Below are positions 1-41,299 of a stretch of 64,000 nt of DNA, one piece after another (positions within the stretch are counted from its first letter, which is position 1; every line of letters begins with the position of its first letter). The stretch spans positions 189,100,001 to 189,164,000 of the forward strand of contig OZ024743.1 in NCBI GenBank assembly GCA_964016885.1, in the 5' to 3' direction. The translations under genes and the position numbers were made by a program. Under the pieces are notes generated by a model. The model made no database searches and was not told the origin of the DNA. It saw nothing but the letters and a program-made list of their open reading frames with translations. Source of the DNA: Eledone cirrhosa. Lineage: Eukaryota.

Positions 1-1578
1 TATTGATTAATTTAAAGAATGAAAGAGATAGTTTTGTACTAATCGAGGCATTAAAAATAGGATTATACCAGATATACTTTCTACAACGTGATTTATTTGG
101 TGGTGAACTTCTATTATTAGTATGTCTGGTAGTATAGTGTGTGTGTGCTTGTGTTTTAGTCCCCCGGTTACGTATACCTTGATTACGTGTAGAGCTATGT
201 GTGTTGTGGAAATTACTATCGATGTATTCTATTGTATCCCGGTGGTCAGCATTCCTTAATGCATTATTGTAGTATTCAGCATGTTCGCTAAAAATATCAG
301 AGTTAGACGATAGGCGAGAGATTCTAAGAGAAATACTCCGGGGAACTGATTTGATCATGGAGAGTGGGTGGTTAGAGTTAAAGTCAATATACGTAAGGTT
401 CTCATTTACCTTGTGGAAGGGTCGTATCTGTCCGGTATTTAAATTAAGAGTTACGTCCAGAAAGTTTACTACCTTAAGATTGTATTCGTATGTTATTTTT
501 AGGCCCAGTTCACTAAAAGATTTTCTAATATTTTTCCGTAGCCTTTCAAGATTTTGGTTATTCAAGTTATTAACTAATAAGAGCCCGTCATCTCTATATA
601 TCCCCCCCTGTAGATTACTAAATCTACTATGTAATATGTGGGCTATGTAAATTCCCACGAGATCCGTGACCTCCGCCGAGTCGTTGGAACCCATGGTAAT
701 ATCGAAATTTGTGGGTCTGTCCTTACGTTCCCAGTAGCAGTTATCGAACTTAATAATGGTTTTTCTAGCCTCGAGAATAATATTAATTTCTTCCTCCGTT
801 AGGTCGGAATTGGCCTTAGCAAACGATAGGGCCTTACGTAAAGTGCTTGGTGAGATGGAAGAGTAGTATTCGTCTATGTCAAATTGTATAAACTTAGATT
901 TATTCTTATTCTTAACATTATTAAACCAGCGAATTGCTTCGCTAGTGTTGCCCCATAATTTAATTTCAATTTTCTTTTTCACTTGAGTTATTACTCTGTC
1001 AAGTATATGTTTACTAATTTTCCCTATGTCTGATTTAGAAGGGCATATAAGTCTAATCTTAGGGTTAGAGTCAAAATTTACCTTATGGTCCTTCAGGTTG
1101 AAGGTGGGGGTAGCGGGTATAATCGGCTCGGTTCTATCGTCTATCTTGAGATTCTTTACCACTTTGTATGCCTCGTTGTTAATATTTGCTAGCGTAGTTT
1201 CATTTGTTTTTCTATATTTTTTGTGTAGTTCGTTGCGTATGAAGTTATTATACGTATCGATATCCATGGTATACACGTTAGAAGTCTTGTCAGCTTTCAC
1301 AACAATTCCATTGGTATTTTGCAATCTTCGGAGTAGTGCTTTCATGTTGTTCTGCAGCTCATTATTTCTATGTCTGTTGAACTTAATGTTCATGGTAGTT
1401 TTCAATAAGTCCTGTTCGAAAGCTTCGAGGTGAGGGTTTGTAGGTGGGTTTTTACATGATTTAAAACCATATGATTCAGACGAGTGATTGGCGCGTCCTT
1501 TATCGAAGTGGAAAGCTTTCCATCGTACACGCCGAATGAAGTCGTTACTGCGTTGAATCATACTGAGAATATATTCCC
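1..1578 (-). CDS. PLE reverse transcriptase, clade 2 (Hydra-like); frame appears open to the left window edge, 5' end truncated at a TA tract
   Basis: Minus-strand translation: REYILSMIQRSNDFIRRVRWKAFHF ... VVKADKTSNVY ... MGSNDSAEVTDLVGIYI ... GIYRDDGL ... NFLDVTLNL ... YIWYNP. The ATG at 1561 is in the same frame as the codons at the window edge. Confidence 0.85.
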
Positions 1579-1629
<51 letters not shown>

Positions 1630-1642
1630 TATATAATTATAA

Positions 1643-1673
<31 letters not shown>

Positions 1674-1680
1674 AATATAT

Positions 1681-2525
1681 TTCGTTTCTGAATTTGTTTA
1701 GCAAAATTCTTTATCTGAAAACGTGTGTTGAAACCGATATTGTTATACTTTGGGAGGGTCATGTTGCCAATAAGAACCACACGCACCAGTTGCTTTCACT
1801 TCAATTTGTTATAATAAATTTATAAATTTAGGAATTTATAAATTTCCGGTTGGTTGGTTGGTTCCACAACCAGATGATTGTTTATATATTGTGAAAGTTC
1901 TTTCGTCACGCATTCTGTGACCTCTTCAGTGACTGGGGATTCTTTTCTTTGTTTTTCTGCCTCTCCTTTGTTCTGTCCTACGCCATCTTGTTTTTGTGTG
2001 TGTTGTGTGCTTAGTTTGCGCATGTGTTACATCAAGGTGTCTGTGTGTGTTTATATTTGTTTATTTATTTGTTTATTTACATCATACTGGTTGGTTGCTT
2101 GTTCTATGTGCGTGTGTGTTTTCATTTTGTCCTTAATTGTAAGTTGTGATGTTGCTGTTCCATTCATGTTTTCTATTTAATTTTGGTTGGAGTTCATTTA
2201 TGTTTATTGCTTCTGTGATTTGTCTAAACATTGCGTCTTTTCTGTGTGTAGATTCTATTTTTATTTCAATGTTCTCTAATTTACCCTTATGTTCTATTTT
2301 AGCATGTTGGTAGAGTACACATGATTCTTTACTATCTTGAAGGTCTCGCCAGTGTTCATTTATCCGTTCCACTATACTACGAGCTGTCTCACCTATGTAC
2401 ACTATATTCTTATTTCTACATTGTCCTTCAGTACATCTTATGCTATATATTACATTTCTAGTTTTACAGTTAATATGGGGGCTTCATTTACAGATGATAC
2501 TTTTCTTATCTATACAGGGAGGTCT
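1681..2525 (-). mobile_element. PLE family A 3' fragment (GIY-YIG end + 3' UTR + tail)
   Basis: ORF 2133-2402 YIGETARS...RQITEA matches the C-terminus of 37634-40774. HHR-like core at 1890-1934. Abuts a TA tract at 1681. Confidence 0.9.
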
Positions 2526-2531
2526 GTCAAA

Positions 2532-3412
2532 GAAATGAAATTTCGTTTCATTTTTTCCATTTATCGTTTTCCGTACCCCGGCCGATTAACTCACTCGATA
2601 TGCACATTAGGCTGCTCAGCCGTTAATATGCATAAGGAAAGTATATACTTTCAGACGTTCAATCATCTGGCAGGAAGGTATACGTTGCTGACGATAGCTA
2701 ATAAGCTTGAAACTAGTACAGCCTTCCTTTGTCAGTGTTGAACATATGAGCAACGATGGTTGCTAGACACTGTACGGCTTAATTCGGGATGTTTGTTTAC
2801 AAACACAGCGAGCATTATTATAAATGTTCGGTGAATCCATACGTACATATATATATGTGTGCATGTATGTATATATATATACATACTACTGTACGTCTGT
2901 ATACATATATGTATGTACGTATACAAACTTATATTTAAGTAACAGCCGTACTAAGAGTGAGAAATGAAATTTCGTTTCATTTTTTCCATTTATCGTTTTC
3001 AGTACCCAGACCGATTAACTCACTCGATATGCAAACTAGGCTGCTCAGCCGTTAATATGCATAAGGAAAGTATATACTTTCAGACGTTCAATCATCTGGC
3101 AGGAAGGTATACGTTGCTGACGGTAGCTAATAAGCTTGAAACAAATACAGCCTTCCTTTGTCAGTGTTGAACATATGAGCAACGATGGTTGCTAGACACT
3201 GTACGGCTTAATTCGGGATGTTTGTTTACAAACACACCGAGCATTACAATAAATGTTCGGTGAATCAATACGTACATATATATATATGTGCGCATGTATG
3301 TATGTATATATATATACATACTGCTGTACGTCTGTATACATATATGTATGTACGTATACAAACTTATATTTAAGTAACAGTGTACTAAGAGTGAGAAATG
3401 AAATATCGTTTC
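2532..3412 (+). repeat. Tandem ~430-bp repeat (2 units + start of a third), retrozyme-like
   Basis: gaaatgaaat(t/a)tcgtttcat recurs at 2532, 2961 and 3395. Each full unit carries an HHR motif. Confidence 0.85.
2667..2736 (+). ncRNA. Type I hammerhead ribozyme with extended, bulged stem I
   Basis: GTTG-CTGACGA-T-AGCT(AATA)AGCT-T-GAAA-CTAG-TA-CAGC. Stem III palindrome ACTAGT, GUA cleavage triplet. Outer helix CTGGCA-GGAAG / CTTCC-TT-TGTCAG. The second copy (~3096-3165) has A9G and stem III changes. Confidence 0.85.
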
Positions 3413-3558
3413 ATATATATATAAATATATATATCAATGAATATATATATAAATATATAAATATATATATATATAATTATATATAAATATATAAATAAAT
3501 ATATATATAAATATATAAATATATATATATATAAATATATAAATATATATATATATAA

Positions 3559-3611
<53 letters not shown>

Positions 3612-3882
3612 AATATATATATATAAATATATAAATATATATATATATATATATAAATATATATATATATAAATATATAAATATATATATATATGTATAT
3701 AAATATATATATATATATATATATAAAAATATATAAATATATATATATAAATATATATATATAAATATATAAATATATATATATATATATAAATATATAT
3801 ATATAAATATATATAAATATATAAATATATAAATATATATATATATAAATATATATAAATATATATAAATATATATATATAA

Positions 3883-3913
<31 letters not shown>

Positions 3914-3968
3914 AATATATATATATAAATATATAAATATATATATATATATATAAATATATAAATAT

Positions 3969-4017
<49 letters not shown>

Positions 4018-4064
4018 AATATATAAATATATATATATATATATATATCTAAATATATAAATAT

Positions 4065-4135
<71 letters not shown>

Positions 4136-4196
4136 AATATATATAAATATATAAATATATATATAAATATATAAATATATATAAATATATATATAT
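3413..4196. repeat. (TA)n/(TAAA) microsatellite, representative of many tracts (e.g. 12392-12733, 14943-15225, 27778-28016, 42325-43485, 52970-53345, 57250-57843, 58500-59655)
   Basis: Direct inspection; these tracts produce the spurious YIYIYI ORFs. Confidence 0.98.
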
Positions 4197-7580: not shown

Positions 7581-9731
7581 TGTAGCAGGAGTTGCCTCCC
7601 TTGTTGTGACACTCACATCCCCAATAGATTAACGCTCTCTAGACAGGATGTAGAACCTTTCTGTAACTTCCGGTCAGAACCCTACAAAGCTAACAACTTT
7701 AAGTTCTCTCTCTCTCATTCAACTTTCCGGCGCCTGGCCTCTCATTCGCCCATTTCGGTCAGGCGCCTCCTGGCTTTCGCCAGGAGTCATGTGTCAGGCG
7801 TGTGTAACCCTGGCAACCAAGCGGTAACTAATAACTTTGTTTCATTCTCTCATCTATTCATTGACATGTCAACTATACTGTTCTATATATCCACAAATTG
7901 TTAATTAAATATTATACACACAAACCACGTCTCCTTGTTACATTCATACACACCAGTAATTTGTTATAAGTGGTGACCCCGACGTGATACGAACACGCAG
8001 CCGTTCATTGTTATAAGTTGTGACCCCGAAAAAAGAAAAAATAGCAGAATCTGGTGTTGTGTGAGTAACATTACGAATACACAGCAACATTTTATTGACA
8101 AACTATGAAAATACGCAACCAAGAAACGAACACACCACGCACATGTGAAATTCGCGTTCAGACAGACTTTTTCTCTCACGCATCAACTAACTGTCGCATT
8201 TCACGATATATATATATATATGTTTCTCGTTTCTTACAACGAACACTTTAAAAACAAAAAAAAACAAAAAATTAGATTTTTTTTTAAAAAACATTACAAC
8301 AGGAACATTTATTTTCGATGAACCTCAACCATTGCCTTTTTTTCATCGTTTTCTTCATCGTTCAAGTTTTTTTTCAAAGTTCACACAAAAAATAAAAGAA
8401 AAACAAATTGAACTCGCCATATTTGTTATGCTAAGTGAAGCCTTTCTTTCTTTTTTATCATTATCACTTTCACACACACATTTTGTCCAAAATGGCTGCC
8501 AACGACCTGTTGCATTATCATTTTCGCGCCATTTTCTCGCGCATTAGAAATAACTTTTTATCAACTTAACCATGTTTTGGCACGTGTAGGATTCTCGATT
8601 CACGGAGATATTTCGACTCACAGAGATAGCCGTACGCCAGGGATAAGGTTTCTCGCCAAGGATTCTCCAGCCTTAAGCTATATTCTCCTATTTGCCGGTT
8701 TAAAAATTTACCACGTAAATTTGCCGTTGAAAACTGCGCATTTATTCAGAATGCTTATTTCTTTGGTCGCTGGCCTCTTGCCCCTTCCAGGTCAACGCAT
8801 TCTCAACATCGACCATCAACTTCGGCTGTTATTTCTAGCACTTTGCGCAACTCATTTTTTCTGAAAAAAATTTTTTTACTGTGAATTTAAACATCGGATA
8901 CGCTCACTCTGCGAGACAACAACATCAACAGCAACACAGCTTCATCAACAACCAAAACCAGCAGAACAAGCCAGAGAATTTATTTTTGCAGCACTCTTCC
9001 TGTGAGAAAATCCATTCGGAGGTTGGAAATTTCACAATATACCACAGAACAGAAACCACCTGCATTCATTCTCTGGAACACACTTTCTTTCCTGCTGTCA
9101 TGTGATTGCACACCTGTGAACTATATTTTGTATATTTGAACTTTGAGCTCTTTTCTAACTTTATTACATTGTATCTTTGGGTGATGGATAGATAGATGTC
9201 CAGTCGTTCTCTGGCCAAGAGCGGTTGGCTACCTTGATGTCTATCATTGATTTTTGCAAACATTATTTTATTTATTTTTATTTTTTTCGTAATTTTCATG
9301 CCTGTTACAACATTCTCGCCAACTTGTTACATACATATTTCATTCGATTTTTATATTTTAAAAATCTGGCGGAAAGTAATGTAGCAGGAGTTGCCTCCCT
9401 TGTTGTGACACTCACATCCCCAATAGTTTAACGCTCTCTAGAAGGAAGTAGAACCCTTTCTGTAACTTCCGGTCAGAACCCTATAAAACTAACAACTTTA
9501 AGTTCTCTCTCTCTCATTCAACTTTCCGGCGCCTGGCCTCTCATTCGCCTTTTCGGTCAGGCGCGAGTAACCCTGGCAATCAAACGGTTACTAATAACTT
9601 TGCTTCATTCTTTCATCTATTCATTGACATGTCAACTATACTGTTCTATATATCCACAAATTGTTAATTAAATATTATACACACAAACCACGTCTCCTTG
9701 TTACATTTATACACACTAGTATTTCGCATTA
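7581..9731 (+). mobile_element. Non-autonomous LTR retroelement (Gypsy-like), LTRs 7581-7968 and 9380-9731
   Basis: Direct repeats starting TGTAGCAGGAG. The 5' LTR ends TGTTATA (decayed TGCTACA). GGCC target duplication at 7577-7580 and 9732-9735. Purine-rich GGCGGAAAGTAA precedes the 3' LTR. No convincing ORF in the 1.4-kb interior. Confidence 0.9.
7971..7988 (+). promoter_or_regulatory. Primer-binding site for tRNA-Trp
   Basis: TGGTGACCCCGACGTGAT, 2 nt after the 5' LTR; 18-nt complement of the eukaryotic tRNA-Trp 3' end. Confidence 0.92.
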
Positions 9732-12142
9732 GGCCCAACAACTTGGGAGGAAACCTGTAGAAGGCTCGGTTAGCCTCAAGAAGCGCACAAGGGATGGTGA
9801 GGTAGTATGTCTACCCACGGATAAGTCTGGTAGGATGTCAATAGATAGCATGCCGAACAACATCAAGGCTATGCAACCCCACATCACCAACACGAGCGAA
9901 ATTGCACAGCAAACACATGATGGGAGAGAGAAAATCTTCAACGCTCACATGATGATGTGGACTGACAACCTAAAGCCAAGCAGACGCACTGCCAACAACT
10001 TCCAGGCGTCTAACAATGGCATACCACCCATGTATGGGCTCCGCAAAGACCACAAGACAGTCGACGACCCGACAACAGGACCACCAACAATACCCGTATG
10101 CGGAGCTAATATAGCTAGCAACTACATTATCTCCTACTTCCTCTCAATGGTTATACGTCCCATAATCAAGATGTCCCCAGATGTATGTGACAGTACAGAG
10201 GACCTCCTCAGCAGAATCAGTGAGTGCAACAAAAACAGGAACCTATCCAACTGTATAATAGGCAGCATGGATGTGGTATCACTGTACCCATCCATTAACA
10301 TTGATTTTGCTTGGAAAAATATGTGGAGTTGATCATTTAGAGTGAGGTGGAGATCTGCAACGTCGACACAGACGAACTGGGCCTCCTACTTAGACTAACT
10401 ACGACACTGACTACCTAGACAGCCATGACCTTAGACGTTTCTGCCCTAGTAGACCCATAAGAGGTAGAACCCCCACCATAACCTCAATGGCAAAAAAGAC
10501 TCCCATGGAAAGGTGGATTGGATGGACCAAAGCTATACGGACCCCCCAAAACAATGATCAGGTAAGAAAAATGGTCGCACATGCACTAGGGGCTAGTATC
10601 AAAACTACCCTCAAGGGCCACATATTCAAGTTCAACGAGAAGATCTACACCCAAAATGAGGGAGCAGCCATTGGCGTCAGCATAGCTGGTGATGTTGCCA
10701 ACCTTTTCATGGTATGGTGGGAAAGGAGACTTAAAGATCTCCTTAATGAGAGCTCCATAGACCACATCATGTACTCTCGTTACGTAGACGATATCAATAT
10801 AGTTATAAGAACATCCCCACTAGAGAGCACTAACAAGTTTGATTTAGAACGTAGCACAATGGAAAGCATCCAGCAGATGACTAATTCCATACACCAGAGA
10901 ATAACTGTAACTATCGACTTCCCTTCCAAACACCCTAACAATAGACTACCTGTATTAGACACAGAACTCTGGATTAACACTATAGACGAGAGAGCCCAAA
11001 TTCTCCACTCACACTATGCTAAACCCATGGCCTCCAAATACCTGATACTTAAAAACTCAGCAATGTCCAGTAGTGCTAAGTTTAATATTCTGATCGCAGA
11101 TTTGGTACGAGTGATGAAGAATGTGTCCCGCATGTGCGACCCAAGAGAAATGGAAAGACACATCCAACACTTCATCAACCGCATGCAGTTCTCTGGCTAC
11201 AACCAAAGAGACAGGGTCAAAGTATACGAAGGAGCCATGGAGAAGTATAAGACCATCATAGAACTGGACATGCAAGGAATTTGCCCATTATACAGGAGCA
11301 AATCATGGAATAGCTTAGATAGGGCTAGACATAAGATAGGGAAAGCCACCTCATGGTGCGACAACCAGAGATACCAGAGTGTCATGTTTGTGGACGCTAC
11401 CCCTGAAGGGAAATTAGCTAACCAGTGTAGAAAGGCCCTGAGAAAGACCCACTTAAAAATTAAGGTGGTAGAAAAGCCAGGAACAACCAACCCTTTTAAG
11501 AAAACCCACTGTACCAATAGGAAATGTATCATATGTAAGGTAAACACCCGGATAAACTGTAAAACTAGAAACGTAGTCTATAGTATAAGATGTACAGAGG
11601 GTACTTGCAGAAACATGACAACAACATACATAGGTGAGACAGCTCGTAGCATAGGTGAAAGGATTGACCAACACTGGGGGGAACTAAAAGGACGAAAAAA
11701 CTGGTCAGTACTATACGAACATGCTAGACAACAACATGACGGTAACATAGACAACATAGAAATTAGAATAATATCTAAACATAGAAATGACCCAGCAGAT
11801 AGGCAAATCAGAGAGGCCAGTGAAATAGAAATTAGAAGGCCAAGACTAAACAGAAAGAATGAATGGTATAACAACAACATCCAAACAAACAACACTGACC
11901 TAAGAGAAGTATAAATAAGTAAATAAAATAAAATAAATAAATAAATAAATAAATACATACACAAGCACATAAACACACACTAATCACCCATCACACAGCA
12001 AACAAAACACTATACACACACGCAAACGCATGCGCAAAGAAGACAAAATAAAATAAACAAACAAGCAAATAAATAAATAAATATATAGACAGACTGAATA
12101 AAAATGGCGTAGACATACAATACAACAGGAGGAAACAATAAC

Positions 12143-18850: not shown

Positions 18851-19304
18851 GATAATTTAATATATCAACTAACATAAGCGCACAGATGCACGCCCATGCC
18901 AGCAAATACACAGGTTATGTCATAGTACCTAGGTGGTTCAATGCAGGAGAATGCAGAACAATAATATAAAGGACGTAAAATAAGAAAATATTTTTTTAAA
19001 AAAATTTAAAAAAAAATTCTTTTCTTACTTAAATTTTCACTCCAACTAATTAGTTTCTGCAATGGGATAAAGACAGTTACGTAATCCAACTGTCGAGAAT
19101 TCATTGCGTCATCAGGAAGTCTATTCTCAGTTAAGTCTCCAGGCAATGCGCGGACACTGGCGGCTCATATAAAAATAATAATAATTCGGTAGATCGAACA
19201 GCTTGCGAGGACTGGATTCTATGTACCGAAATTCTCACTGCTTCAAGTCAAATGGCCGATTCTAAAGAATCAATCACGTGACACAGAGGCTAGTTAGAAG
19301 GAAT
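18851..19304 (-). repeat. Inverted, permuted partial unit of the 559-bp array
   Basis: Reverse complement of array sequence; HHR at 19039-19120(-); starts at a TA tract. Confidence 0.92.
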
Positions 19305-22295
19305 GAGCCGCCAGTGTCCGCGCATTGCCTGGAGACTTAACTGAGAATAGACTTCCTGATGACGCAATGAATTCTCGACAGTTGGATTACGTAACTGTCT
19401 TTATCCCATTGCAGAAACTAATTAGTTGGAGTGAAAATTTAAGTAAGAAAAGAATTTTTTTTTTAAATTTTTTTTAAAAAAATATTTTCTTATTTTACGT
19501 CCTTTATATTATTGTTCTGCATTCTCCTGCATTGAACCACCTAGGTACTATGACATAACCTGTGTATTTGCTGGCATGGGCGTGCATCTGTGCGCTTATG
19601 TTAGTTGATATATTAAATTATCTATATTTATCTCCAAATCACTGATTTGTCGAGCAAACTTGTCAAAACCACTTCTAAAAAAATTTTTTTTGGGGTGTTA
19701 GTAGGCGTCAGTCATCTTACCATCCCATTCCTTCTAACTAGCCTCTGTGTCACGTGATTGATTCTTTAGAATCGGCCATTTGACTTGAAGCAGTGAGAAT
19801 TTCGGTACATAGAATCCAGTCCTCGCAAGCTGTTCGATCTACCGAATTATTATTATTTTTATATGAGCCGCCAGTGTCCGCGCATTGCCTGGAGACTTAA
19901 CTGAGAATAGACTTCCTGATGACGCAATGAATTCTCGACAGTTGGATTACGTAACTGTCTTTATCCCATTGCAGAAACTAATTAGTTGGAGTGAAAATTT
20001 AAGTAAGAAAAGAATTTTTTTTTAAATTTTTTTAAAAAAATATTTTCTTATTTTACGTCCTTTATATTATTGTTCTGCATTCTCCTGCATTGAACCACCT
20101 AGGTACTATGACATAACCTGTGTATTTGCTGGCATGGGCGTGCATCTGTGCGCTTATGTTAGTTGATATATTAAATTATCTATATTTATCTCCAAATCAC
20201 TGATTTGTCGAGCAAACTTGTCAAAACCACTTCTAAAAAAATTTTTTTTTGGGGTGTTAGTAGGCGTCAGTCATCTTACCATCCCATTCCTTCTAACTAG
20301 CCTCTGTGTCACGTGATTGATTCTTTAGAATCGGCCATTTGACTTGAAGCAGTGAGAATTTCGGTACATAGAATCCAGTCCTCGCAAGCTGTTCGATCTA
20401 CCGAATTATTATTATTTTTATATGAGCCGCCAGTGTCCGCGCATTGCCTGGAGACTTAACTGAGAATAGACTTCCTGATGACGCAATGAATTCTCGACAG
20501 TTGGATTACGTAACTGTCTTTATCCCATTGCAGAAACTAATTAGTTGGAGTGAAAATTTAAGTAAGAAAATAATTTTTTTTTAAATTTTTTTAAAAAAAT
20601 ATTTTCTTATTTTACGTCCTTTATATTATTGTTCTGCATTCTCCTGCATTGAACCACCTAGGTACTATGACATAACCTGTGTATTTGCTGGCATGGGCGT
20701 GCATCTGTGCGCTTATGTTAGTTGATATATTAAATTATCTATATTTATCTCCAAATCACTGATTTGTCGAGCAAACTTGTCAAAACCACTTCTAAAAAAA
20801 TTTTTTTTTGGGGTGTTAGTAGGCGTCAGTCATCTTACCATCCCATTCCTTCTAACTAGCCTCTGTGTCACGTGATTGATTCTTTAGAATCGGCCATTTG
20901 ACTTGAAGCAGTGAGAATTTCGGTACATAGAATCCAGTCCTCGCAAGCTGTTCGATCTACCGAATTATTATTATTTTTATATGAGCCGCCAGTGTCCGCG
21001 CATTGCCTGGAGACTTAACTGAGAATAGACTTCCTGATGACGCAATGAATTCTCGACAGTTGGATTACGTAACTGTCTTTATCCCATTGCAGAAACTAAT
21101 TAGTTGGAGTGAAAATTTAAGTAAGAAAAGAATTTTTTTTTAAATTTTTTAAAAAAAATATTTTCTTATTTTACGTCCTTTATATTATTGTTCTGCATTC
21201 TCCTGCATTGAACCACCTAGGTACTATGACATAACCTGTGTATTTGCTGGCATGGGCGTGCATCTGTGCGCTTATGTTAGTTGATATATTAAATTATCTA
21301 TATTTATCTCCAAATCACTGATTTGTCGAGCAAACTTGTCAAAACCACTTCTAAAAAAATTTTTTTTTGGGGTGTTAGTAGGCGTCAGTCATCTTACCAT
21401 CCCATTCCTTCTAACTAGCCTCTGTGTCACGTGATTGATTCTTTAGAATCGGCCATTTGACTTGAAGCAGTGAGAATTTCGGTACATAGAATCCAGTCCT
21501 CGCAAGCTGTTCGATCTACCGAATTATTATTATTTTTATATGAGCCGCCAGTGTCCGCGCATTGCCTGGAGACTTAACTGAGAATAGACTTCCTGATGAC
21601 GCAATGAATTCTCGACAGTTGGATTACGTAACTGTCTTTATCCCATTGCAGAAACTAATTAGTTGGAGTGAAAATTTAAGTAAGAAAAGAATTTTTTTTT
21701 AAATTTTTTTTAAAAAATATTTTCTTATTTTACGTCCTTTATATTATTGTTCTGCATTCTCCTGCATTGAACCACCTAGGTACTATGACATAACCTGTGT
21801 ATTTGCTGGCATGGGCGTGCATCTGTGCGCTTATGTTAGTTGATATATTAAATTATCTATATTTATCTCCAAATCACTGATTTGTCGAGCTAACTTGTCA
21901 AAACCACTTCTAAAAAAATTTTTTTTTGGGGTGTTAGTAGGCGTCAGTCATCTTACCATCCCATTCCTTCTAACTAGCCTCTGTGTCACGTGATTGATTC
22001 TTTAGAATCGGCCATTTGACTTGAAGCAGTGAGAATTTCGGTACATAGAATCCAGTCCTCGCAAGCTGTTCGATCTACCGAATTATTATTATTTTTATAT
22101 GAGCCGCCAGTGTCCGCGCATTGCCTGGAGACTTAACTGAGAATAGACTTCCTGATGACGCAATGAATTCTCGACAGTTGGATTACGTAACTGTCTTTAT
22201 CCCATTGCAGAAACTAATTAGTTGGAGTGAAAATTTAAGTAAGAAAAGAATTTTTTTTTTAATTTTTTTAAAAAAATATTTTCTTATTTTACGTC

Positions 22296-29092: not shown

Positions 29093-30364
29093 ATAGTTTT
29101 CCGAGGTTTTTTATATGAAATCGTGTGTCGAAACAAATATTGTTATACTTGGGGAGGGTCATATTTGTGTAATATTGCCAGAATTAATAACAGAACACAG
29201 TCACTGTTTGGTGGGTTTTCGCTTTTCGCTTCTGTGTCTTTTATATCGGTAATCTAATTTATTCGGTCCTCAATGTTGCCATTGACTGACCGGCGGTCAA
29301 AAATAATACAGATACAATATAGACACAAACACATACATATAGTTTATCAGAGTTCTTTCGTTGCACATCTGCAACAGCGTCAGTGGTGCTACTGTTTCCT
29401 CCCGTTGCATTGTATGACTACACCATTTTTATTTAGTCTGTCTATATATTTATTTATTTGTTTGTTCATTTTATTTGTTTGTTTGTTCATTTTATTTTTA
29501 TTTTTCTCTTCTTTGCGCATGCGTTAGCGTGTGTGTTTAGTGTTTTGTTTAATGTGTGTTCGTGATTGGGTGACTAGTGTGTGTTTATATGTGTTTGTTG
29601 TTATTGTGCTTGTGTATCTATATATTTATTTATTTATCTATTTATTTATTTATTTATACTTCTCTTAGTTCAGTGTTCTTTGTTAGGGTGTTGTTGTTAT
29701 TCCATTCATTCTTTCTGTTTAGTCTTGGCCTTCTAAGTTCTATTTCACTGGCCTCTCTGATTTGCCTATCTGCTGGGTCATTTCTATGTTTAGATATTAT
29801 TCTAATTTCTATGTTGTATATGTTACCGTCGTGTTGTTGTCTGGCATGTTTGTATAGTACTGACCCGTTTTTTCGTCCTTTTAGTTCCCCCAGTGTTGGT
29901 CTATCCTTTCACCTATGCTACGAGCTGTCTCGCCTATGTATGTTGTAGTCATGTTTCTGCAAGTACCCTCTGTACCTCTGATACTATAGACTACGTTTCT
30001 AGTTTTACAGTTTATACGGGGGTTTACCTTACATATGATACATTTCCTATTAGTACAGTGGATTTTCTTAAAAGGGTAGGTTTTGCTGATCAGGGATTTT
30101 ATAGTGGTTCCTGGCTTTTCTACCACCTTAATTTTTAAGTGGGTCTTTCTCAGGCCCTTTCTACACTGGTTAGCTAATTTCCCTCCAGGGGTAGCGTCCA
30201 CAAACATGACACTCTGGTATCTCTGGTTGTCGTACCATGAGGTGGCTTTCCCTAACTTATGTCTAGCCCTATCTAAGCTATTCCATGATTTGCTCCTGTA
30301 TAATGGGCAAATTCCTTTCATGTTTCAGTTCTATGAGTGTCTTATACTTCTCCATGGCTCCTTC

Positions 30365-30401: not shown

Positions 30402-30832
30402 TATATATTTTGAGTTTATGTTGGTTGTATACCAACACCTCAGTATGCAGGCTGGAGCACTCGACGAAGTGCGCAGGTTGGTTTGGTTACTCCGGAGTAG
30501 TGTAAAATAAAGTTAAATAAAAGTCAAATGATTAAAATTTAGCTTCGTTTATTACTGCTATATATATTTCAGTGACAGCCATCTTTGGCTGTGACCTCTC
30601 ATATGACTCCTGTTCCCCAGTGAATTAACAACCCAGCAAGGAACTGGGCATATCAGAGTATTGACAATATCATACACCTAAACAACATATGTACTTGTCT
30701 ATACCATACTAATTCAAACTGCCTGAAGAGGTCACAGCCAAAGATGGCTGTCACTGAAATATATATAGCAGTAATAAACGAAGCTAAATTTTAATCATTT
30801 GACTTTTATTTAACTTTATTTTATAAATATAT

Positions 30833-30867
<35 letters not shown>

Positions 30868-30874
30868 AATATAT

Positions 30875-31246
<372 letters not shown>

Positions 31247-32635: not shown

Positions 32636-33908
32636 ATAGTTTTCCGAGGTTTTTTATATGAAATCGTGTGTCGAAACAAATATTGTTATACTTGGGGAGG
32701 GTCATATTTGTGTAATATTGCCAGAATTAATAACAGAACACAGTCACTGTTTGGTGGGTTTTCGCTTTTCGCTTCTGTGTCTTTTATATCGGTAATCTAA
32801 TTTATTCGGTCCTCAATGTTGCCATTGACTGACCGGCGGTCAAAAATAATACAGATACAATATAGACACAAACACATACATATAGTTTATCAGAGTTCTT
32901 TCGTTGCACATCTGCAACAGCGTCAGTGGTGCTACTGTTTCCTCCCGTTGCATTGTATGACTACACCATTTTTATTTAGTCTGTCTATATATTTATTTAT
33001 TTGTTTGTTCATTTTATTTGTTTGTTTGTTCATTTTATTTTTATTTTTCTCTTCTTTGCGCATGCGTTAGCGTGTGTGTTTAGTGTTTTGTTTAATGTGT
33101 GTTCGTGATTGGGTGACTAGTGTGTGTTTATATGTGTTTGTTGTTATTGTGCTTGTGTATCTATATATTTATTTATTTATCTATTTATTTATTTATTTAT
33201 ACTTCTCTTAGTTCAGTGTTCTTTGTTAGGGTGTTGTTGTTATTCCATTCATTCTTTCTGTTTAGTCTTGGCCTTCTAAGTTCTATTTCACTGGCCTCTC
33301 TGATTTGCCTATCTGCTGGGTCATTTCTATGTTTAGATATTATTCTAATTTCTATGTTGTATATGTTACCGTCGTGTTGTTGTCTGGCATGTTTGTATAG
33401 TACTGACCCGTTTTTTCGTCCTTTTAGTTCCCCCCAGTGTTGGTCTATCCTTTCACCTATGCTACGAGCTGTCTCGCCTATGTATGTTGTAGTCATGTTT
33501 CTGCAAGTACCCTCTGTACCTCTGATACTATAGACTACGTTTCTAGTTTTACAGTTTATACGGGGGTTTACCTTACATATGATACATTTCCTATTAGTAC
33601 AGTGGATTTTCTTAAAAGGGTAGGTTTTGCTGATCAGGGATTTTATAGTGGTTCCTGGCTTTTCTACCACCTTAATTTTTAAGTGGGTCTTTCTCAGGCC
33701 CTTTCTACACTGGTTAGCTAATTTCCCTCCAGGGGTAGCGTCCACAAACATGACACTCTGGTATCTCTGGTTGTCGTACCATGAGGTGGCTTTCCCTAAC
33801 TTATGTCTAGCCCTATCTAAGCTATTCCATGATTTGCTCCTGTATAATGGGCAAATTCCTTTCATGTTTCAGTTCTATGAGTGTCTTATACTTCTCCATG
33901 GCTCCTTC

Positions 33909-33945: not shown

Positions 33946-34376
33946 TATATATTTTGAGTTTATGTTGGTTGTATACCAACACCTCAGTATGCAGGCTGGA
34001 GCACTCGACGAAGTGCGCAGGTTGGTTTGGTTACTCCGGAGTAGTGTAAAATAAAGTTAAATAAAAGTCAAATGATTAAAATTTAGCTTCGTTTATTACT
34101 GCTATATATATTTCAGTGACAGCCATCTTTGGCTGTGACCTCTCATATGACTCCTGTTCCCCAGTGAATTAACAACCCAGCAAGGAACTGGGCATATCAG
34201 AGTATTGACAATATCATACACCTAAACAACATATGTACTTGTCTATACCATACTAATTCAAACTGCCTGAAGAGGTCACAGCCAAAGATGGCTGTCACTG
34301 AAATATATATAGCAGTAATAAACGAAGCTAAATTTTAATCATTTGACTTTTATTTAACTTTATTTTATAAATATAT

Positions 34377-34411
<35 letters not shown>

Positions 34412-34669
34412 AATATATATTTGCCTAGTTACACCCTCTGGATATTTAGCTCCTTTATTTGCCTAGTTACACCCTCTGGATATTTAGCTCCTTTATTTGC
34501 CTAGTTACACCCTCTGGATATTTAGCTCCTTTATTTGCCTAGTTACACCCTCTGGATATTTAGCTCCTTTATTTGCCTAGTTACACCCTCTGCATATTTA
34601 GCTACTTCATTTGCCTAGTTACACCCTCTGGATATTTAGCTCCTTTATTTGCGTAGTTACACCCTCTGG

Positions 34670-34786
<117 letters not shown>

Positions 34787-34811
34787 CGTATATATATATA
34801 TTTATAAATAT

Positions 34812-36332: not shown

Positions 36333-37599
36333 TTTCGTTTCTGAATTTGTTTAGCAAGATTCTTTATCTGAAATCCTGTTTTGAAACCGATATTGTTATA
36401 CTTTGGGAGGGTCATGTTGCCAATAAGAAACACACGCACCAGTTGCTTTCACTTCAATTTATTATATATTTATAAATTTATAAATTTACAAATCTACAAA
36501 CTTATAAATTTCTGGTTGGTTGATTGGTTCCACAACCAGATAGTTGTTTATGTATAGTCATAGTCCTTTCGTCACACACTCTGTGACCTCTTCAGTGACT
36601 GGGGATTCCTTTCTTTGTTTCTGTGCCTTTCCTTTCTTCCATCCTACGCCATTTTGTTTCTGTGTGTGTGTTGTGTGCTCAATTTGCGCATGCGCCACAT
36701 CCGGGTGTCTGTGTGTGTTTGTGTTCATTTATCTATTTGTTTATTTATTTATTTATTTATTGTTGTTTGGTTGTTTGTTCTATGTGTGTGTGTGTTTTCA
36801 TTTTGTCCTGTGCGTGTTTTCATTTTGCCCTTAATTGTAAGTTGTTTGTTCTATGTGTGTGTTTGTGTGTTTTCATTTTGTCCTGTGTATGTTTTCATTT
36901 TGTCCTTAATTGTAAGTTGTGATGTTGCTGTTCCACTCATATTTTCTATTTAATTTTGGTTGTAATTCTTTTATGCTTACTGCCTCTGTAATTTGCCTAA
37001 ACATTGCATCTTTTCTGTGTGTGGATTCTATTTTTATTTCTATGTTCTCTAATCTACCCCTGTGTTCTATCCTAGCATGTTGGTAGAGCACAGATGATTC
37101 TTTATTATCTTGAAGGTCTCGCCAGTGTTCATTTATTCGTTCTCCTATACTACGAGCTGTCTCACCTATGTACACTATATTTTTGTTTCTACATTGTCCT
37201 TCAGTACATCTTATGCTATACACTACATTTCTAGTTTTACAGTTAATATGGGGGCTTATTTTACAGGTTATACATTTCTTATTTATACATGAGGGTCTTT
37301 GGAACGTGTATGTCTTGCTAATAAGTGTTTTTACGGAGGTACCTTGTCTTTCTACTATCTTAATATTGAGTTTATGTTTATTTAGGGCCCTTCTAAATTT
37401 GTAGGCTAGTTCGCCTCTAGGGGTTGTATTGATGAACATTACACTCTGGTATTTATTGCTATCATACCATGAGTTTATTCTATTGGCCTTGTTCCTAGTT
37501 CTTTCAATTCTATTCCACACTTTGCTCCTATACAAGGGGCAGGTCCCATTTATGTCATTATTTACCATTTTTTCCCATTTGGTTCTGGCTCCTCTATAC
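36333..37599 (-). mobile_element. Inverted 3' copy (pseudo-LTR-like) of PLE family A with tail
   Basis: Reverse complement of 40081-41212 plus ~50 extra nt; ORF 36906-37568; HHR at 36556-36600. Confidence 0.95.
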
Positions 37600-37633
37600 C
37601 AATAGATATCCCGACAAAATTGACGGTATCAAC

Positions 37634-40600
37634 ATGGCCGACACCTCATTATCAGAAGAGTTCAACAACAAAAATACCAACATTTATGGGAACACGGAAA
37701 TAGATAATAATGAAATGTCTGTGTTATGTCTGCCGCCCAAATTTGCGACATTCAAGAAGGTAAATATGATTAGTTGTCTGTCAGAAATAGAAAAATCATT
37801 TACAAAACTACGCTGGAGCATCAAAAACAAAAGCAACAATATACGCAAACACATATACAACACACATCCCAACAACAACATACACACAGACACAAACAAC
37901 AATAACAACAACACACACATCAACAACAACAACAATAGCAACATACCCAGCTACAACAACAACATACACGCAGACACAAACAACAATAACAACACACACA
38001 ACAACGATAACACACACGGAGACAACAACAATACACATCAACAACAGCACACATCAACAACAACAACACACACGCATTCAATGCCTCTCACCGCCACCAC
38101 AATCTTAACAAACACACAGACACAGAAAACAAGTAATAACAGTAGCACAGAAATCAGAGAAATAAGGGAAAGTAATAGGATTAAAAGGAAAAGGAGATGG
38201 GAGACTAAGGACAAAGAGAATAACCAAGACGAACACACAGACACACAAAATAGGGTAGATAACAACATTGAGCCAGTGGAAAGAGACAGGAGTAATTATG
38301 AGAGACATAGAAACAACCATGAGGCTGTTGGTGGAAATAGAAATAGAAACAACACAACTAACAATAACAATAGCACTAGTACACATAAAGCAGCAGCCTG
38401 TAACTCTCCGTTTTATAATCCCTCCGATAAATCATTCGACCTGCGACGAGTCCACGCCACGACTTTACCATTTAACAAACGCACGCAGTTGCCGTCGCAG
38501 GTCGATGAACAAACAGAAGCACAATTTAGTATAGCTAAATCCGAACTTAGAAATATTATAGAACAGTATAGCAAGAAGCATAATAGAATAGAGGCCCAGC
38601 AACTGGGAGAAAAATCTGCAAATGGCTTGCGTAAGCTCATGCAGCGCTCGCGTAATGGAGAGATAGCATGCTTTCCAACAGACAAGTCTGGCAGAATGTC
38701 GGTTGACAGCCTGCCAAACTACATACAGGCAATGCAATCCCACATCACTAACACAAGAGAGGTAACACCACAGGAGCATGAGGATAGAGAAAAAGCCCTC
38801 AATGCCCATATGGTGATGTGGACGAATATAATGCAGCCCAACAAAAGGACTGCCAACAACTTCCAGGCCTGGAACAATGACGTGCCGGCGTTGTATGGGC
38901 TTCGAAAAGACCATAAAACGGGCTGGGACCCTGTCGCGGGACCACCAACACGGCCAGTCTGTGGAGCTAACATTTCTAGTAACTACAGACTGTCCTACTT
39001 CCTCTCCCTGATCATACGCCCCATCATTGAGATGTCCCCAGATGTATGTGACAGCACGGTGTACCTCCTCAGCAGAATCGGCGCGGGTAACCGATCTGGG
39101 GACCTAACAAACTGCATAATAGGCAGTATGGATGTTGTGTCCCTGTATCCATCTATTGACGTGGATTTTGCTGTGGAGAAATGCGTAGAAATGATCAGCG
39201 AGAGCAAGGTTGAGTTTCGTGGGATTGATACCAGTGAGCTGGGACTTCTTCTTAAGCTTACCCATAGTAATAGTTACCTAGACACTTATGACCTGTGCCC
39301 TACAAGACCAGCAAGAGGCAGACCACCTACCATTACCTCAATGGCCAAGAAAACCCACACAGATAGATGGAACGGGTGGACCAGAGCCATACGGACACCC
39401 GAAAACCACGATGAACTGAAGAAAATGATTGCACATGCAGTAGGGGCCAGCATAAAATTAACCCTTAAGGAACATATGTTCAAATTTAATGGTAAAACAT
39501 ATGCCCAAGAGGAAGGAGCAGCCATTGGTGTTAGCATTGCAGGCGACATAGCTAACTTATTCATGGTATGGTGGGACAGTAGACTTAAACAAAAATTTAA
39601 AGAACAATTAGAAGACAGCTTAACGCTGATAATGTACTCCCGCTACGTAGATGATATAAACATCGTAGTTAAGACACCCCCACTAAAGAACTGTCAGGAA
39701 CTAGAGAAAAACACAATGGACATCATCCAGCAAATAGCAAACTCCATCCACCAGAGCATTAGAGTTACTATAGACTACCCAAGTAGATACGCCAACCATC
39801 GATTACCTGTACTAGACACAGAGCTCTGGTTAGATACCATTAACAACCAAAAACAAATCCTCCATTCCCATTATGCCAAACCCATGACTTCCAAACATCT
39901 GATCCACCGAAACTCGGCCATTTCGGACCATACCAAAATCAACATACTGATTGCGGATTTGGTACGGGTGATGAGAAATGTGTCCCGCATGTGCAACCCC
40001 GAAGAACTAGAGAGACACATACAACACTTCATCCACCGTATGCAGTTCTCTGGCTACAATCAGAGAGATAGAATCAGAGTGTATAGAGGAGCCAGAACCA
40101 AATGGGAAAAAATGGTAAATAATGACATAAATGGGACCTGCCCCTTGTATAGGAGGAAATTTTGGAATAGAATAGAAAGAACTAGGAGCAAGGCCAATAG
40201 AATAAACTCATGGTATGATAGAAATAAATACCAGAGTGTAATGTTCATCAATACAACCCCTAGAGGCGAACTAGCCTACAAATTTAGAAGGGCCCTAAAT
40301 AAACATAAACTCAATATTAAGATAGTAGAAAGACCAGGTACCTCCGTAAAAACACTTATTAGCAAGACATACCCGTTCCAAAGACCCTCATGTATAGATA
40401 AGAAATGTATAACCTATAAAATAAGCCCCCATATTAACTGTAAAACTAGAAATGTAGTGTATAGCATAAGATGTACTGAAGGACAATGTAGAAACAAAAA
40501 TATAGTGTACAAAGGTGAGACAGCTCGTAGTATAGGGGAACGAATAAATGAACACTGGCGAGACCTTCAAGATAATAAAGAATCATCTGTGCTCTACCAA

Positions 40601-40774: not shown

Positions 40775-41004
40775 GGACAAAATTAAAACACACACAGGAC
40801 AAAATGAAAACACACACACACATAGAACAAACAACCAACCAACAATAAATAAATAAATAAATAAGCAAATAGATAAATGAACACAAACACACACAGACAC
40901 CCGGATGTGGCGCATGCGCAAACTGAGCACACAACACACACACAGAAACAAAACGGCGTAGGATGGAAGAAAGGAAAGGCACAGAAACAAAGAAAGGAAT
41001 CCCC

Positions 41005-41049
41005 AGTCACTGAAGAGGTCACAGAGTGTGTGACGAAAGGACTATGACT
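41005..41049 (+). ncRNA. Minimal type I HHR in the family A 3' UTR (copies 36556-36600(-), 55960-56004(-), 56458-56502(+), 57963-58007(+), 1890-1934(-))
   Basis: AGTCA-CTGAAGA-G-GTCAC(AGAGTGT)GTGAC-GAAA-GGAC-TA-TGACT. Confidence 0.9.
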
Positions 41050-41207
41050 ATATATAAACAACTATCTGTTTGTGGAACCAACCAACCAACCAGAAATTTA
41101 TAAGTTTGTAGATTTGTAAATTTATAAATTTATAAATATATAATAAATTGAAGTGAAAGCAACTGGTGCGTGTGTTTCTTATTGGCAACATGACCCTCCC
41201 AAAGTAT

Positions 41208-41299
<92 letters not shown>

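What the first reader, a model, noticed from the sequence alone, without database searches (positions are those of the whole stretch)
1681..3412. PLE inverted arm fused directly to a tandem HHR repeat: a possible snapshot of trans-mobilisation
Seen: between two TA tracts, a tailed family A arm (1681-2525, minus) is joined within ~6 nt to the 430-bp HHR array (plus), which occupies the position of the normal direct arm. Inference: one integration event used both RNAs, linking this retrozyme-like RNA to family A RT.
Basis: partly seen in the sequence, partly recalled or inferred. Interest (0 to 1): 0.75.

Follow-up and report, generated by a model that had tools for sequence, protein, structure and literature searches.

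The report
Penelope arm abutting hammerhead-repeat dimer
A truncated copy of a Penelope-like retrotransposon lies head-to-head against two units of a 430-bp repeat with a hammerhead-like motif that itself inserts in Penelope style, but the junction likely arose from two successive insertions into one (TA)n tract, so it is not yet proof of a shared integration event.

Summary
Window 1681-2525 (minus) is a 5'-truncated family A Penelope-like element (PLE) arm with a 56-nt tail. Five filler bases follow (2526-2530). 2531-3412 (plus) is 2.05 units of a 430-bp repeat. Both 3' ends face (TA)n tracts.

The repeat has a complete hammerhead core but is far below Rfam's threshold (16.7 vs 52 bits), and unit 2 has a core mutation.

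The strongest result is family-wide. The 430-bp family shows the PLE insertion signature at 51 other loci: (TA)n at 3' ends, 5' truncation, head-to-head pairs, and a ~62-nt tail on one arm only. It is therefore very likely mobilised by PLE-type machinery.

The single-event reading is not shown:
- No other head-to-head A/430 pair occurs in 86 other loci.
- The index pair carries tail sequence on both arms, unlike 31 of 33 classifiable homotypic pairs.
- The repeat shares no 3' sequence with family A.
- Flush junctions between copies of different subfamily or age exist.

In its favour, the two parts are equally diverged, and two other direct A-430 fusions (head-to-tail, different breakpoints) exist.

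Odds: successive insertions about 0.5, one two-template event about 0.33.

The parts
1..1574 (-). 5'-truncated copy of a very young RT-encoding repeat ('Y'); a later, separate insertion at the same (TA)n tract
   Evidence: window 1250-1578 has 13 places at 100% identity and 755 first-look candidates; other copies continue ~245 nt past window 1574; minus-strand ORFs carry a YRDDG motif.
1579..1680 (.). (TA)n tract next to the 3' (tailed) end of the family A arm
1681..1736 (-). 56-nt 'tail' of family A (outer end of the arm)
   Evidence: arm positions 1-56 match 36334-36389 but not the direct end at 41215.; in L050 the tail is followed by ATAT and the A 5'UTR.
1737..2525 (-). Family A body, 5'-truncated: 3'UTR plus the last 129 codons (GIY-YIG-like region) of the ORF
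   Evidence: tblastn, ORF residues 917-1045 map to 2524-2138 at 76% identity..
1890..1936 (-). Family A minimal-hammerhead-like motif; here it carries a private G->C change in helix I
   Evidence: Rfam finds nothing for this motif.
2526..2530 (.). 5-nt filler GTCAA at the 5'-to-5' junction
2531..2962 (+). 430-bp repeat, unit 1 (starts at unit position -2)
   Evidence: 9 of 430 differences from the family consensus.
2670..2736 (+). Hammerhead-like motif of unit 1 (core CUGACGA...GAAA, loop CUAG, predicted cut after 2718)
   Evidence: Hammerhead_HH9, 16.7 bits, E 0.047, below the gathering score of 52. (descriptor hit 2688-2722; 0 hits in 40 shuffles).
2963..3396 (+). 430-bp repeat, unit 2; hammerhead core mutated (A9->G, loop CAAA)
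   Evidence: 17 of 429 differences from the consensus.
3397..3412 (+). Start of a third unit, i.e. the distal part of the 430 family's own tail, ending at unit ~19 instead of the usual 32
   Evidence: the end lies at unit 32 in 23 copies and at ~19-20 only here and in L088.
3413..4196 (.). (TA)n-rich tract next to the 3' end of the 430 arm

Best explanation
Window 1681-2525 (minus) is a tailed, 5'-truncated copy of a (TA)n-associated Penelope-like element, and 2531-3412 (plus) is 2.05 units of a 430-bp non-coding repeat with a hammerhead-like motif, joined 5'-to-5' through five filler bases; the junction likely arose from two successive Penelope-type insertions into the same (TA)n tract, with the TA between them lost, rather than from one two-template event. 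Shown: the anatomy, and that the 430-bp family integrates with the full PLE signature genome-wide. That signature comprises two alternative 3' ends beside (TA)n (untailed at unit ~400, tailed at unit 32), 5' truncation, tandem units, and head-to-head pairs with a short filler or microhomology and one tail per pair. Inferred: the 430 RNA is a non-autonomous, retrozyme-like template copied by a (TA)n-targeting PLE RT/GIY-YIG enzyme, with family A or a relative as candidate. One element inserted first. The second then primed in the flanking TA tract in the opposite orientation, and its 5' end was joined flush to the first element after the remaining TA was lost.
For: (1) The region is a nest of TA-targeted insertions. 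The window holds 55 TA tracts covering 9,724 nt. A third, much younger element (Y, copies 100% identical) abuts the same tract at 1574. (2) A and 430 copies often share TA neighbourhoods without being fused: L052 and L062 among 35 A-centred loci, and L022 and L103 among 51 430-centred loci. (3) Insertions often have no TA at their 5' junction. Of 7 solo A arms, 3 abut non-TA DNA directly (L046, L051, L062), 1 has only 16 nt of TA (L068), and 3 have TA (L056, L057, L061). (4) Concerted pairs are asymmetric. Among classifiable homotypic head-to-head pairs, 9 of 9 (A) and 22 of 24 (430) have one tailed and one untailed arm (L041 was read by hand as both-tailed). The index locus has tail sequence on both arms, as expected for two separate tailed insertions. 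(5) Flush head-to-head junctions between copies of different origin exist. In L047 and L059 the arms belong to different A subfamilies (98.8% and 95.7% to subfamily 1 against 96.7% and 92.5% to subfamily 2). In L049 the A(+) fragment is 88.8-93.1% identical to same-subfamily references, whereas the adjoining A(-) arm pieces are 97-99%. (6) No other head-to-head A/430 pair was found in 86 other loci. The exact junction is unique among the 40 scored of 576 candidates. (7) The 430 repeat shows no similarity to the A 3'UTR or tail: local score 27 against shuffles of 21.2 +/- 3.1, maximum 36.
Against: There is no TA at all between the two 5' ends, only 5 nt of filler. That matches homotypic pairs, whose gaps run from -11 to +31 nt. 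The 430 arm starts at unit -2, inside the cluster of native 5' ends (27 of 74 arm 5' ends lie in unit 1-60), so nothing was trimmed from it. Divergence from family consensus is alike: A arm 20/845 = 2.4%, unit 1 9/430 = 2.1%, unit 2 17/429 = 4.0%. The 5% difference between the two units fits two initially identical copies of that age. One both-tailed homotypic pair with 98.5% identical arms (L041) shows that a concerted pair can carry two tails. Two further direct A-430 fusions (L097, L049) and one PLE-X-430 fusion (L002/L043) suggest that cDNAs of the repeat and of PLEs do get joined. Samples are small and biased: each genome search scored only the best 40 candidates, with 1.5-kb flanks.
Confidence: 0.5

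Rival explanations
1. One integration event with two templates. The two DNA ends of one break in a (TA)n tract would each prime reverse transcription, one on a family A RNA and the other on a 430-repeat RNA. The two cDNAs would then be joined at their 3' ends, giving a head-to-head heterotypic pair. This would show trans-mobilisation of the repeat by the family A enzyme.
For: The architecture equals that of homotypic pairs: direct 5'-5' junction, 5-nt filler, both 3' ends in (TA)n. The divergence of both parts is equal. The 430 5' end sits at the native-end cluster. The 430 family clearly uses PLE-type machinery and the same (TA)n context as A. Other direct A-430 fusions with different breakpoints exist: L097 joins A position ~3568 to unit 21, and L049 joins A ~2114 to unit ~373. 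Each is unique among 40 scored candidates. Mixed-subfamily A pairs (L047, L059) could also be two-RNA events.
Against: No head-to-head A/430 pair occurs in 86 other loci, although head-to-head pairs are very common (59 other head-to-head junctions listed). If arms were freely drawn in trans, many such pairs would be expected. The index has tails on both arms, against 31 of 33 classifiable homotypic pairs with exactly one. There is no shared 3' end between the repeat and A. The other A-430 fusions are head-to-tail, which this mechanism does not produce. In L049 the fused A fragment is older than the neighbouring arm.
Confidence: 0.33
2. Secondary DNA-level rearrangement: a deletion or recombination within a larger nest (for example an A/A pair followed by TA and a 430 array) removed the intervening sequence and created the flush junction long after both insertions.
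For: Complex mosaics with internal jumps or deletions occur in this family: L049, L060, L072, L008, L027 and L037. TA tracts and inverted repeats are prone to breakage (established knowledge, not tested here).
Against: The 430 arm begins at a native 5' end, not at a random position. The filler is short, as at primary junctions. No remnant of a second A arm or of TA is present.
Confidence: 0.1
3. Assembly artefact: the A arm and the 430 array were joined wrongly because both are high-copy repeats.
For: PLE tandem/inverted structures are known to trouble assemblies (PMC8557442, passage seen). No listed Logan contig bridges the junction.
Against: The A arm carries private variants, and unitigs of single-copy-like depth (23 in X1, 15 in X2) cover 2493-2527 up to the junction. 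The window lies in a chromosome-scale contig. The junction has the same form as dozens of other pairs.
Confidence: 0.05

Closest known systems
Endonuclease-positive Penelope-like elements with (TA)n insertion bias (Neptune/Naiad/Hydra-type structures described in PMC8557442; passages read)
   Same: [quoted passage not shown] It has an inverted 5'-truncated copy next to the full copy and a tail present at one end only. It inserts beside (TA)n and has a hammerhead-like motif in the 3' region.
   Different: The tail is 56 nt, against the 30-40 bp quoted. The clade was not determined because no phylogeny was run. Pfam scores are below threshold for RT (23.3 vs 29.6 bits) and absent for GIY-YIG. 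The hammerhead-like motif is not recognised by Rfam.
Animal non-LTR retrozymes (PMC7229834, passages; bioRxiv 10.64898/2026.07.22.740005, abstract, section 14 and passages)
   Same: The repeat forms 430-bp tandem units, from 1.1 units to arrays of at least 20 units (C3:72.26 Mb). GC is 36.5%. It has a type I hammerhead-like motif with a 1-bp helix III and a palindromic CUAG loop, and a U-U pair at the base of helix II as described for axolotl HHR_Amex2. The monomer RNA is very strongly self-paired (z -7.6). It co-exists with autonomous PLEs.
   Different: Neither self-cleavage nor circular RNA was tested. The motif is far below Rfam's threshold. Arm 5' ends cluster at unit 1-60, not at the predicted cleavage site (unit 186/187), so a hammerhead-cut linear RNA is not the obvious template. 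The family shows PLE tails and inverted pairs. I did not find these described for retrozymes in the texts I could read; the preprint has 0 hits for 'tail', and 'inverted' and 'chimer' occur only in its reference list. No pLTR homology to a PLE of this genome was found (family A only).
Non-autonomous PLE derivatives such as the Chlamys-derived MRC1 (PMC8557442, passage)
   Same: Non-coding elements that form pLTR-like partial tandems and multicopy head-to-tail insertions.
   Different: Those share 3' ends with their autonomous partners. The 430 repeat shares none with family A, and its partner is unidentified.
LINE-1 twin priming and template-switch chimeric retrocopies (recalled from general knowledge; PMC2104539 seen only as a search listing)
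   Same: These offer mechanistic analogies: two primed ends for head-to-head arms, and an RT jump from one RNA to another for head-to-tail fusions (L097, L049, L002).
   Different: PLE arms overlap in sequence, so each contains the 3' end, which single-RNA twin priming does not give. No experiment exists for PLEs.

Membership tests
Penelope-like element (family A arm and its full copy at 36334-41215) | Reverse transcriptase domain | tested here: inconclusive
   Pfam RVT_1 scores 23.3 bits (E 5.8e-5), below the curated cut-off of 29.6. A YVDD motif is visible in the translation. The index arm itself holds no RT part.
Penelope-like element (family A arm and its full copy at 36334-41215) | GIY-YIG endonuclease fused to the RT (C-terminal) | tested here: inconclusive
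   Pfam gives no hit. BLASTP to the Pfam-positive GIY-YIG stretch of PLE-X (L002; 23.6 bits vs cut-off 22.6) gives E 1e-4 over 40 residues. PDB I-TevI matches at E 0.88. The index arm retains this region.
Penelope-like element (family A arm and its full copy at 36334-41215) | Inverted 5'-truncated copy, partial tandem (pLTR) and a tail at one end only | tested here: met
   (window copy). In 9 of 9 classifiable A pairs one arm is tailed and one untailed. A tandem junction with tail is seen in L050.
Penelope-like element (family A arm and its full copy at 36334-41215) | Hammerhead motif in the terminal repeat | tested here: inconclusive
   My own descriptor finds 4 A copies in the window and 0 hits in 40 shuffles. 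The motif is kept in 28 of 30 arms. Rfam finds none. The descriptor was written after seeing the motif.
Non-LTR retrozyme (430-bp repeat) | Short tandem repeats of about 150-450 bp, low GC | tested here: met
   430-bp units from dimers to arrays of at least 20 units; GC 36.5%.
Non-LTR retrozyme (430-bp repeat) | Type I hammerhead ribozyme in every unit | tested here: inconclusive
   All core bases are present in the consensus and in unit 1. Rfam Hammerhead_HH9 scores 16.7 bits against a gathering score of 52 and nothing appears at gathering level. Unit 2 has A9->G. The young family gives no covariation. A 66-nt fold is not better than shuffles (z 0.28).
Non-LTR retrozyme (430-bp repeat) | Self-cleavage and expression as circular RNA | not testable with these tools
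Non-LTR retrozyme (430-bp repeat) | Highly self-paired monomer RNA | tested here: met
   MFE is -140.4 kcal/mol against shuffles of -95.2 +/- 5.95, z -7.59, with 0 of 100 shuffles as stable.
Concerted PLE head-to-head pair (one event) | Direct 5'-to-5' junction with a short filler or microhomology | tested here: met
   5-nt filler; homotypic pairs show -11 to +31 nt.
Concerted PLE head-to-head pair (one event) | One tailed and one untailed arm | tested here: not met
   The A arm has the full 56-nt tail. The 430 arm runs past the untailed site (unit ~400) to unit ~19 of the next unit. 31 of 33 classifiable homotypic pairs obey the rule.
Concerted PLE head-to-head pair (one event) | Both arms of the same age | tested here: inconclusive
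   2.4% against 2.1% and 4.0% divergence from consensus. This is compatible, but both families have similar overall ages.
Concerted PLE head-to-head pair (one event) | Recurrence of the same heterotypic pairing elsewhere | tested here: not met
   0 of 51 other 430-centred loci and 0 of 35 other A-centred loci have it. Only head-to-tail fusions were found (L097, L049).

The most novel reading that the evidence does not exclude
The locus is a frozen two-template Penelope integration: one break in a (TA)n tract, one end primed on family A RNA and the other on the hammerhead-repeat RNA. That would be the first direct structural proof that an animal retrozyme-like RNA is reverse-transcribed by a Penelope enzyme in trans. 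It would also show that the two arms of Penelope insertions come from separate template molecules.
Probability: 0.33. Interest if true: 0.75.

Novelty: new member of a known kind. Interest (0 to 1): 0.5.

Why it matters
Who mobilises animal hammerhead-bearing tandem repeats (non-LTR retrozymes) is an open question. PLEs have been proposed on the grounds of co-occurrence, shared type I hammerheads and pLTR similarity (PMC7229834; bioRxiv 10.64898/2026.07.22.740005). This genome adds insertion-site anatomy. A retrozyme-like family carries the peculiar PLE hallmarks: a tail on one arm only, head-to-head truncated pairs, two alternative 3' ends beside (TA)n, and occasional direct fusions to PLE cDNA. 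That makes the hypothesis testable in a natural system. It also gives quantitative rules, such as the one-tail rule and the tail being the leader that precedes the 5' end in tandem copies. These rules constrain models of the still undefined PLE integration cycle. The index junction alone is not decisive.

Tried and rejected
- Rfam at gathering level on the whole window gave 0 matches.
- An Rfam E-value search of 1400-3600 gave no hammerhead. It gave only sub-threshold microRNA-like hits on the TA-rich hairpin of the unit.
- Rfam on the family A motif gave nothing.
- A fold of the 66-nt hammerhead stretch was not better than shuffles (z 0.28).
- No RNA holder was listed among the sequencing runs, so expression could not be examined.
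- Laying Logan contigs on 1690-3405 (X1, X4, X5, X7) and on 2430-2630 (X1, X2, X3, X9) was uninformative. Both families are massively repeated, unitigs are short, and no listed piece bridges the junction.
- Earlier findings of this scan returned nothing by place or by sequence.
- The exact junctions of the index locus, L097 and L049 were searched in the genome. Each was found only at its own place among the 40 scored candidates, so none is an amplified composite element.
- A search for similarity between the 430 repeat and the family A 3'UTR plus tail gave chance level.
- I first read L049 as one event using a single A RNA, because the inverted A piece lies inside the gap of the other arm. I rejected this because that piece is 88.8-93.1% identical to subfamily references while the arm is 97-99%.
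- Arm-to-arm identity in pairs could not separate one-RNA from two-RNA origins.
- Clustering loci by shared exact 150-mers over-merged young copies, so I counted independent loci by hand from the coordinates.
- A first script to call tail ends had a logic error and was redone.
- The flanking sequence was searched for a paralogous empty site. The left flank turned out to be another young repeat, so this gave no empty site.
- The organism and the PLE clade were not determined.
- bioRxiv supplements are closed and may hold relevant retrozyme/PLE details.
Full report
**1. What is in the sequence**

The stretch lies between two (TA)n tracts, 1582-1680 and 3413-4196 (TRF; sequence).

In-window BLASTN shows that 1681-2525 is a minus-strand copy of a repeat, 'family A'. 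The full copy of family A lies at 36334-41215. That copy has an inverted arm at 36334-37599 and a direct part with one long ORF (37635-40771).
- The ORF holds a YVDD motif.
- Pfam RVT_1 is sub-threshold at 23.3 bits against a cut-off of 29.6.
- The C-terminal region aligns with a Pfam-positive GIY-YIG stretch of another PLE of this genome (E 1e-4).
- It matches I-TevI faintly (E 0.88).

The index arm covers the last 129 codons of that ORF (tblastn, 76% identity), the 3'UTR, and a 56-nt extension at 1681-1736. The extension is also present on the inverted arm at 36334-36389 but is missing at the direct end 41215. This is the 'tail' that PMC8557442 describes as often present at only one end of a PLE insertion (passages read).

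A homology ends at 2525. Five bases (GTCAA) follow. From 2531 the plus strand carries unit 1 (to 2962), unit 2 (2963-3396, 95% identical to unit 1) and 16 further bases of a 430-bp repeat.

**2. The hammerhead**

- Rfam at gathering level finds nothing in the window.
- A permissive search of 2.2 kb also finds no hammerhead.
- Only a 91-nt search gives Hammerhead_HH9 at 16.7 bits (gathering score 52, E 0.047). Its alignment recovers CUGACGA, a 4-bp helix II, GAAA and a short helix III.
- By eye the motif is a type I hammerhead. Helix I is split by a bulge. A U-U pair sits at the base of helix II, a feature reported for axolotl HHR_Amex2 in PMC7229834. Helix III is 1 bp with the palindromic loop CUAG, and the cut is predicted after 2718.
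- A descriptor that I wrote after seeing the motif hits the 64-kb window five times on both strands: unit 1 and four family A copies. It gives 0 hits in 40 dinucleotide shuffles.
- Unit 2 has A9->G and would be inactive.
- The family is too young for covariation.
- Family A's own motif (CUGAAGA, a bulged G, GUCAC/GUGAC, GAAA) matches the 'min-HHR' features listed in PMC4209133. It is kept in 28 of 30 arms but is invisible to Rfam.
- The 430-nt monomer RNA, permuted at the predicted cut, folds far better than shuffles (z -7.59). GC is 36.5%.

'Retrozyme-like' is therefore a fair label, but cleavage and circular RNA remain untested.

**3. The 430-bp family behaves like a PLE insertion**

The window lies in a 3.0-Gb genome. 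The unit has 1,256 first-look candidates and an internal 176-nt piece has 287. I mapped 51 independent loci other than the index, counted by hand from the coordinates. The findings are:
- Copies range from 1.1 units to arrays of at least 20 units.
- The 3' ends lie beside (TA)n at two alternative sites. The 'untailed' site is at unit ~400 (...ACTTATAT). The 'tailed' site is at unit 32 of the next unit (...TTCCGTTTAT; 23 copies). The tail is therefore about 62 nt.
- 5' ends are variable but cluster. 27 of 74 arm 5' ends lie in unit 1-60, where 10 would be expected.
- Head-to-head inverted pairs are very common. Their gaps run from -11 to +31 nt.

One search lists 60 head-to-head junctions, one of which is the index. 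Among pairs whose two outer ends could be classified:
- 22 of 24 430/430 pairs have exactly one tail. The exceptions are one both-untailed pair and one both-tailed pair (L041, read by hand).
- 9 of 9 A/A pairs have exactly one tail. Those loci were chosen with a tailed query, so the informative point is that the partner is untailed.
- 12 430 pairs and 4 A pairs had an end fitting neither site. 10 pairs ran off the locus.

Tails assigned at random would give one-tail pairs only half of the time. Pairs are therefore mostly concerted, asymmetric events. This anatomy is the strongest evidence that the repeat is copied and integrated by PLE-type machinery. I did not find it described for retrozymes in three literature searches. 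The 2026 preprint has 0 hits for 'tail', and 'inverted' and 'chimer' occur only in its references.

**4. Is the index junction one event?**

Points in favour:
- It has the form of a concerted pair: flush, with a 5-nt filler and both 3' ends in TA.
- The 430 arm starts at unit -2, within the native-end cluster.
- Divergence from family consensus is alike: A arm 20/845 = 2.4%, unit 1 9/430 = 2.1%, unit 2 17/429 = 4.0%.
- Two other direct A-430 fusions with different breakpoints exist. In L097, A(+) up to ~48 nt before its untailed end is joined to unit 21 of a 1.9-unit 430(+) copy. In L049, an A(+) fragment 1946-2114 is joined to the last ~90 nt of a 430(+) copy.
- A different PLE ('X', with RVT_1 at E 1e-11 and GIY-YIG above cut-off) is fused head-to-tail to a full-length 430 5' end in L002/L043. 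The EN reading frame does not continue downstream.
- Each of the three junctions that I searched is unique among the 40 scored candidates.

Points against:
- None of the 51 other 430-centred loci and none of the 35 other A-centred loci has a head-to-head A/430 pair. The other fusions are head-to-tail, which two-ended priming does not produce.
- Both arms of the index carry tail sequence. The A tail is complete. The 430 arm runs to unit ~19, an unusual end seen otherwise only in L088. This is the minority state among concerted pairs (2 of 33 are not one-tailed).
- The repeat has no detectable similarity to the A 3'UTR or tail. Non-autonomous PLE derivatives described so far share 3' ends with their partners (PMC8557442).
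- Successive insertions into shared TA tracts are plainly frequent here. There are 55 TA tracts in the window. A third, 100%-identical young element abuts the same left tract. A and 430 copies are neighbours separated by TA in L052, L062, L022 and L103.
- 3 of 7 solo A arms abut non-TA DNA directly, and one more has only 16 nt of TA. Flush junctions therefore need no special event.
- Flush head-to-head junctions between copies of different subfamily (L047, L059) or different age (L049) exist.

Taking the two non-canonical homotypic pairs as a guide, up to about an eighth of flush pairs may be sequential. That rate is enough to expect an occasional A/430 pair.

**5. Verdict on mechanism**

I put about 0.5 on two successive PLE-type insertions, with the order unknown and the intervening TA lost when the second 5' junction formed. 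I put about 0.33 on one two-template event. About 0.1 goes to later rearrangement and 0.05 to misassembly.

The wider inference, that the repeat is a non-autonomous template of a (TA)n-targeting PLE enzyme, I hold at about 0.85. Whether that enzyme is family A is open. Shared target context and two direct fusions speak for A. The lack of a shared 3' end and the fusion with PLE-X speak against exclusivity.

**6. Side result on the tail**

In L050 the A tail is followed by ATAT and then by the A 5'UTR, the same sequence that precedes the ORF start in L058. In the 430 family the tail is the stretch just upstream of the clustered 5' ends. In tandem context the tail is therefore the leader of the next unit. 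Both the tailed and the untailed sites end in AU-rich words (..AATAT / ..GAAATAT in A..TTATAT / ..GTTTAT in the repeat).

From this I infer two things. The template RNA is terminally redundant. The TA-ended target DNA can prime at either site. Neither inference was tested.

**7. Limits**

- Every genome search scored only the 40 best of hundreds to thousands of candidates.
- Flanks were 1.5 kb.
- The samples favour well-preserved copies.
- The end classification is automatic and misread at least one locus (L041).
- No relatives' genomes and no RNA data were available.
- L1 twin priming is cited from memory only.

Noticed in passing
window 1-1574 (minus); L104-L113: A very young RT-encoding repeat ('Y'). 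Window 1250-1578 has 13 places at 100% identity and 755 candidates in the genome. The window copy is 5'-truncated at 1574 and abuts the same (TA)n tract. Minus-strand ORFs carry a YRDDG motif. It is probably an active element.
   Followed up: partly
L050:292-347 and L058:2785-3280; 430 family generally: The PLE 'tail' equals the leader that precedes the 5'UTR or 5' end in tandem copies. This suggests a terminally redundant template RNA and two alternative AU-rich priming sites (tailed and untailed).
   Followed up: partly
86 loci of the own genome: One-tail rule: 31 of 33 classifiable head-to-head homotypic pairs (A and 430) have exactly one tailed arm. This implies an intrinsically asymmetric concerted event.
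   Followed up: yes
L002:1-1500 / L043:5028-8701 (G000:C6:65.43 Mb): A different PLE ('X': RVT_1 E 1e-11, GIY-YIG above cut-off) with an inverted arm and pLTR. Its direct copy is cut inside the endonuclease and fused head-to-tail to a full-length 430 5' end (unit -18). This is either a template switch or a 5'-junction deletion.
   Followed up: partly
L097:1-2300 (G000:C4:19.76 Mb) and L049:1501-3484 (G000:C4:332.34 Mb): Two further direct family A-430 fusions, both head-to-tail with different breakpoints. Each is unique in the genome search. L049 is a mosaic in which an older A fragment lies between a younger A arm and the 430 piece.
   Followed up: yes
window 2839-2929 and 3268-3362: A long TA-rich hairpin inside each 430 unit gives sub-threshold microRNA-family hits in Rfam (for example mir-297 at 54.9 bits against 90). 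It dominates the very stable fold of the monomer.
   Followed up: no
window 9719-11867 (plus); 29868-30296 and 33232-33840 (minus): Other PLE-like ORF remnants 39-47% identical to the family A protein. The first is frameshifted. The latter two lie in a 3,544-bp duplication.
   Followed up: no
window 19303-22282: A 559-bp tandem repeat with five to six copies at 96-100% identity. Also a 38-bp minisatellite at 30760-31246 and 34304-34790.
   Followed up: no
window 37850-38500: The N-terminal third of the family A ORF is asparagine-rich low-complexity sequence. BLAST homology between A subfamilies often stops near ORF-proximal position ~1410-1480 of my reference.
   Followed up: no
runs X4, X5, X7: Contigs 95-99% like both family A and the 430 repeat occur in runs labelled as other organisms (B, C, E). 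Both families are therefore shared by several related taxa or labels.
   Followed up: no
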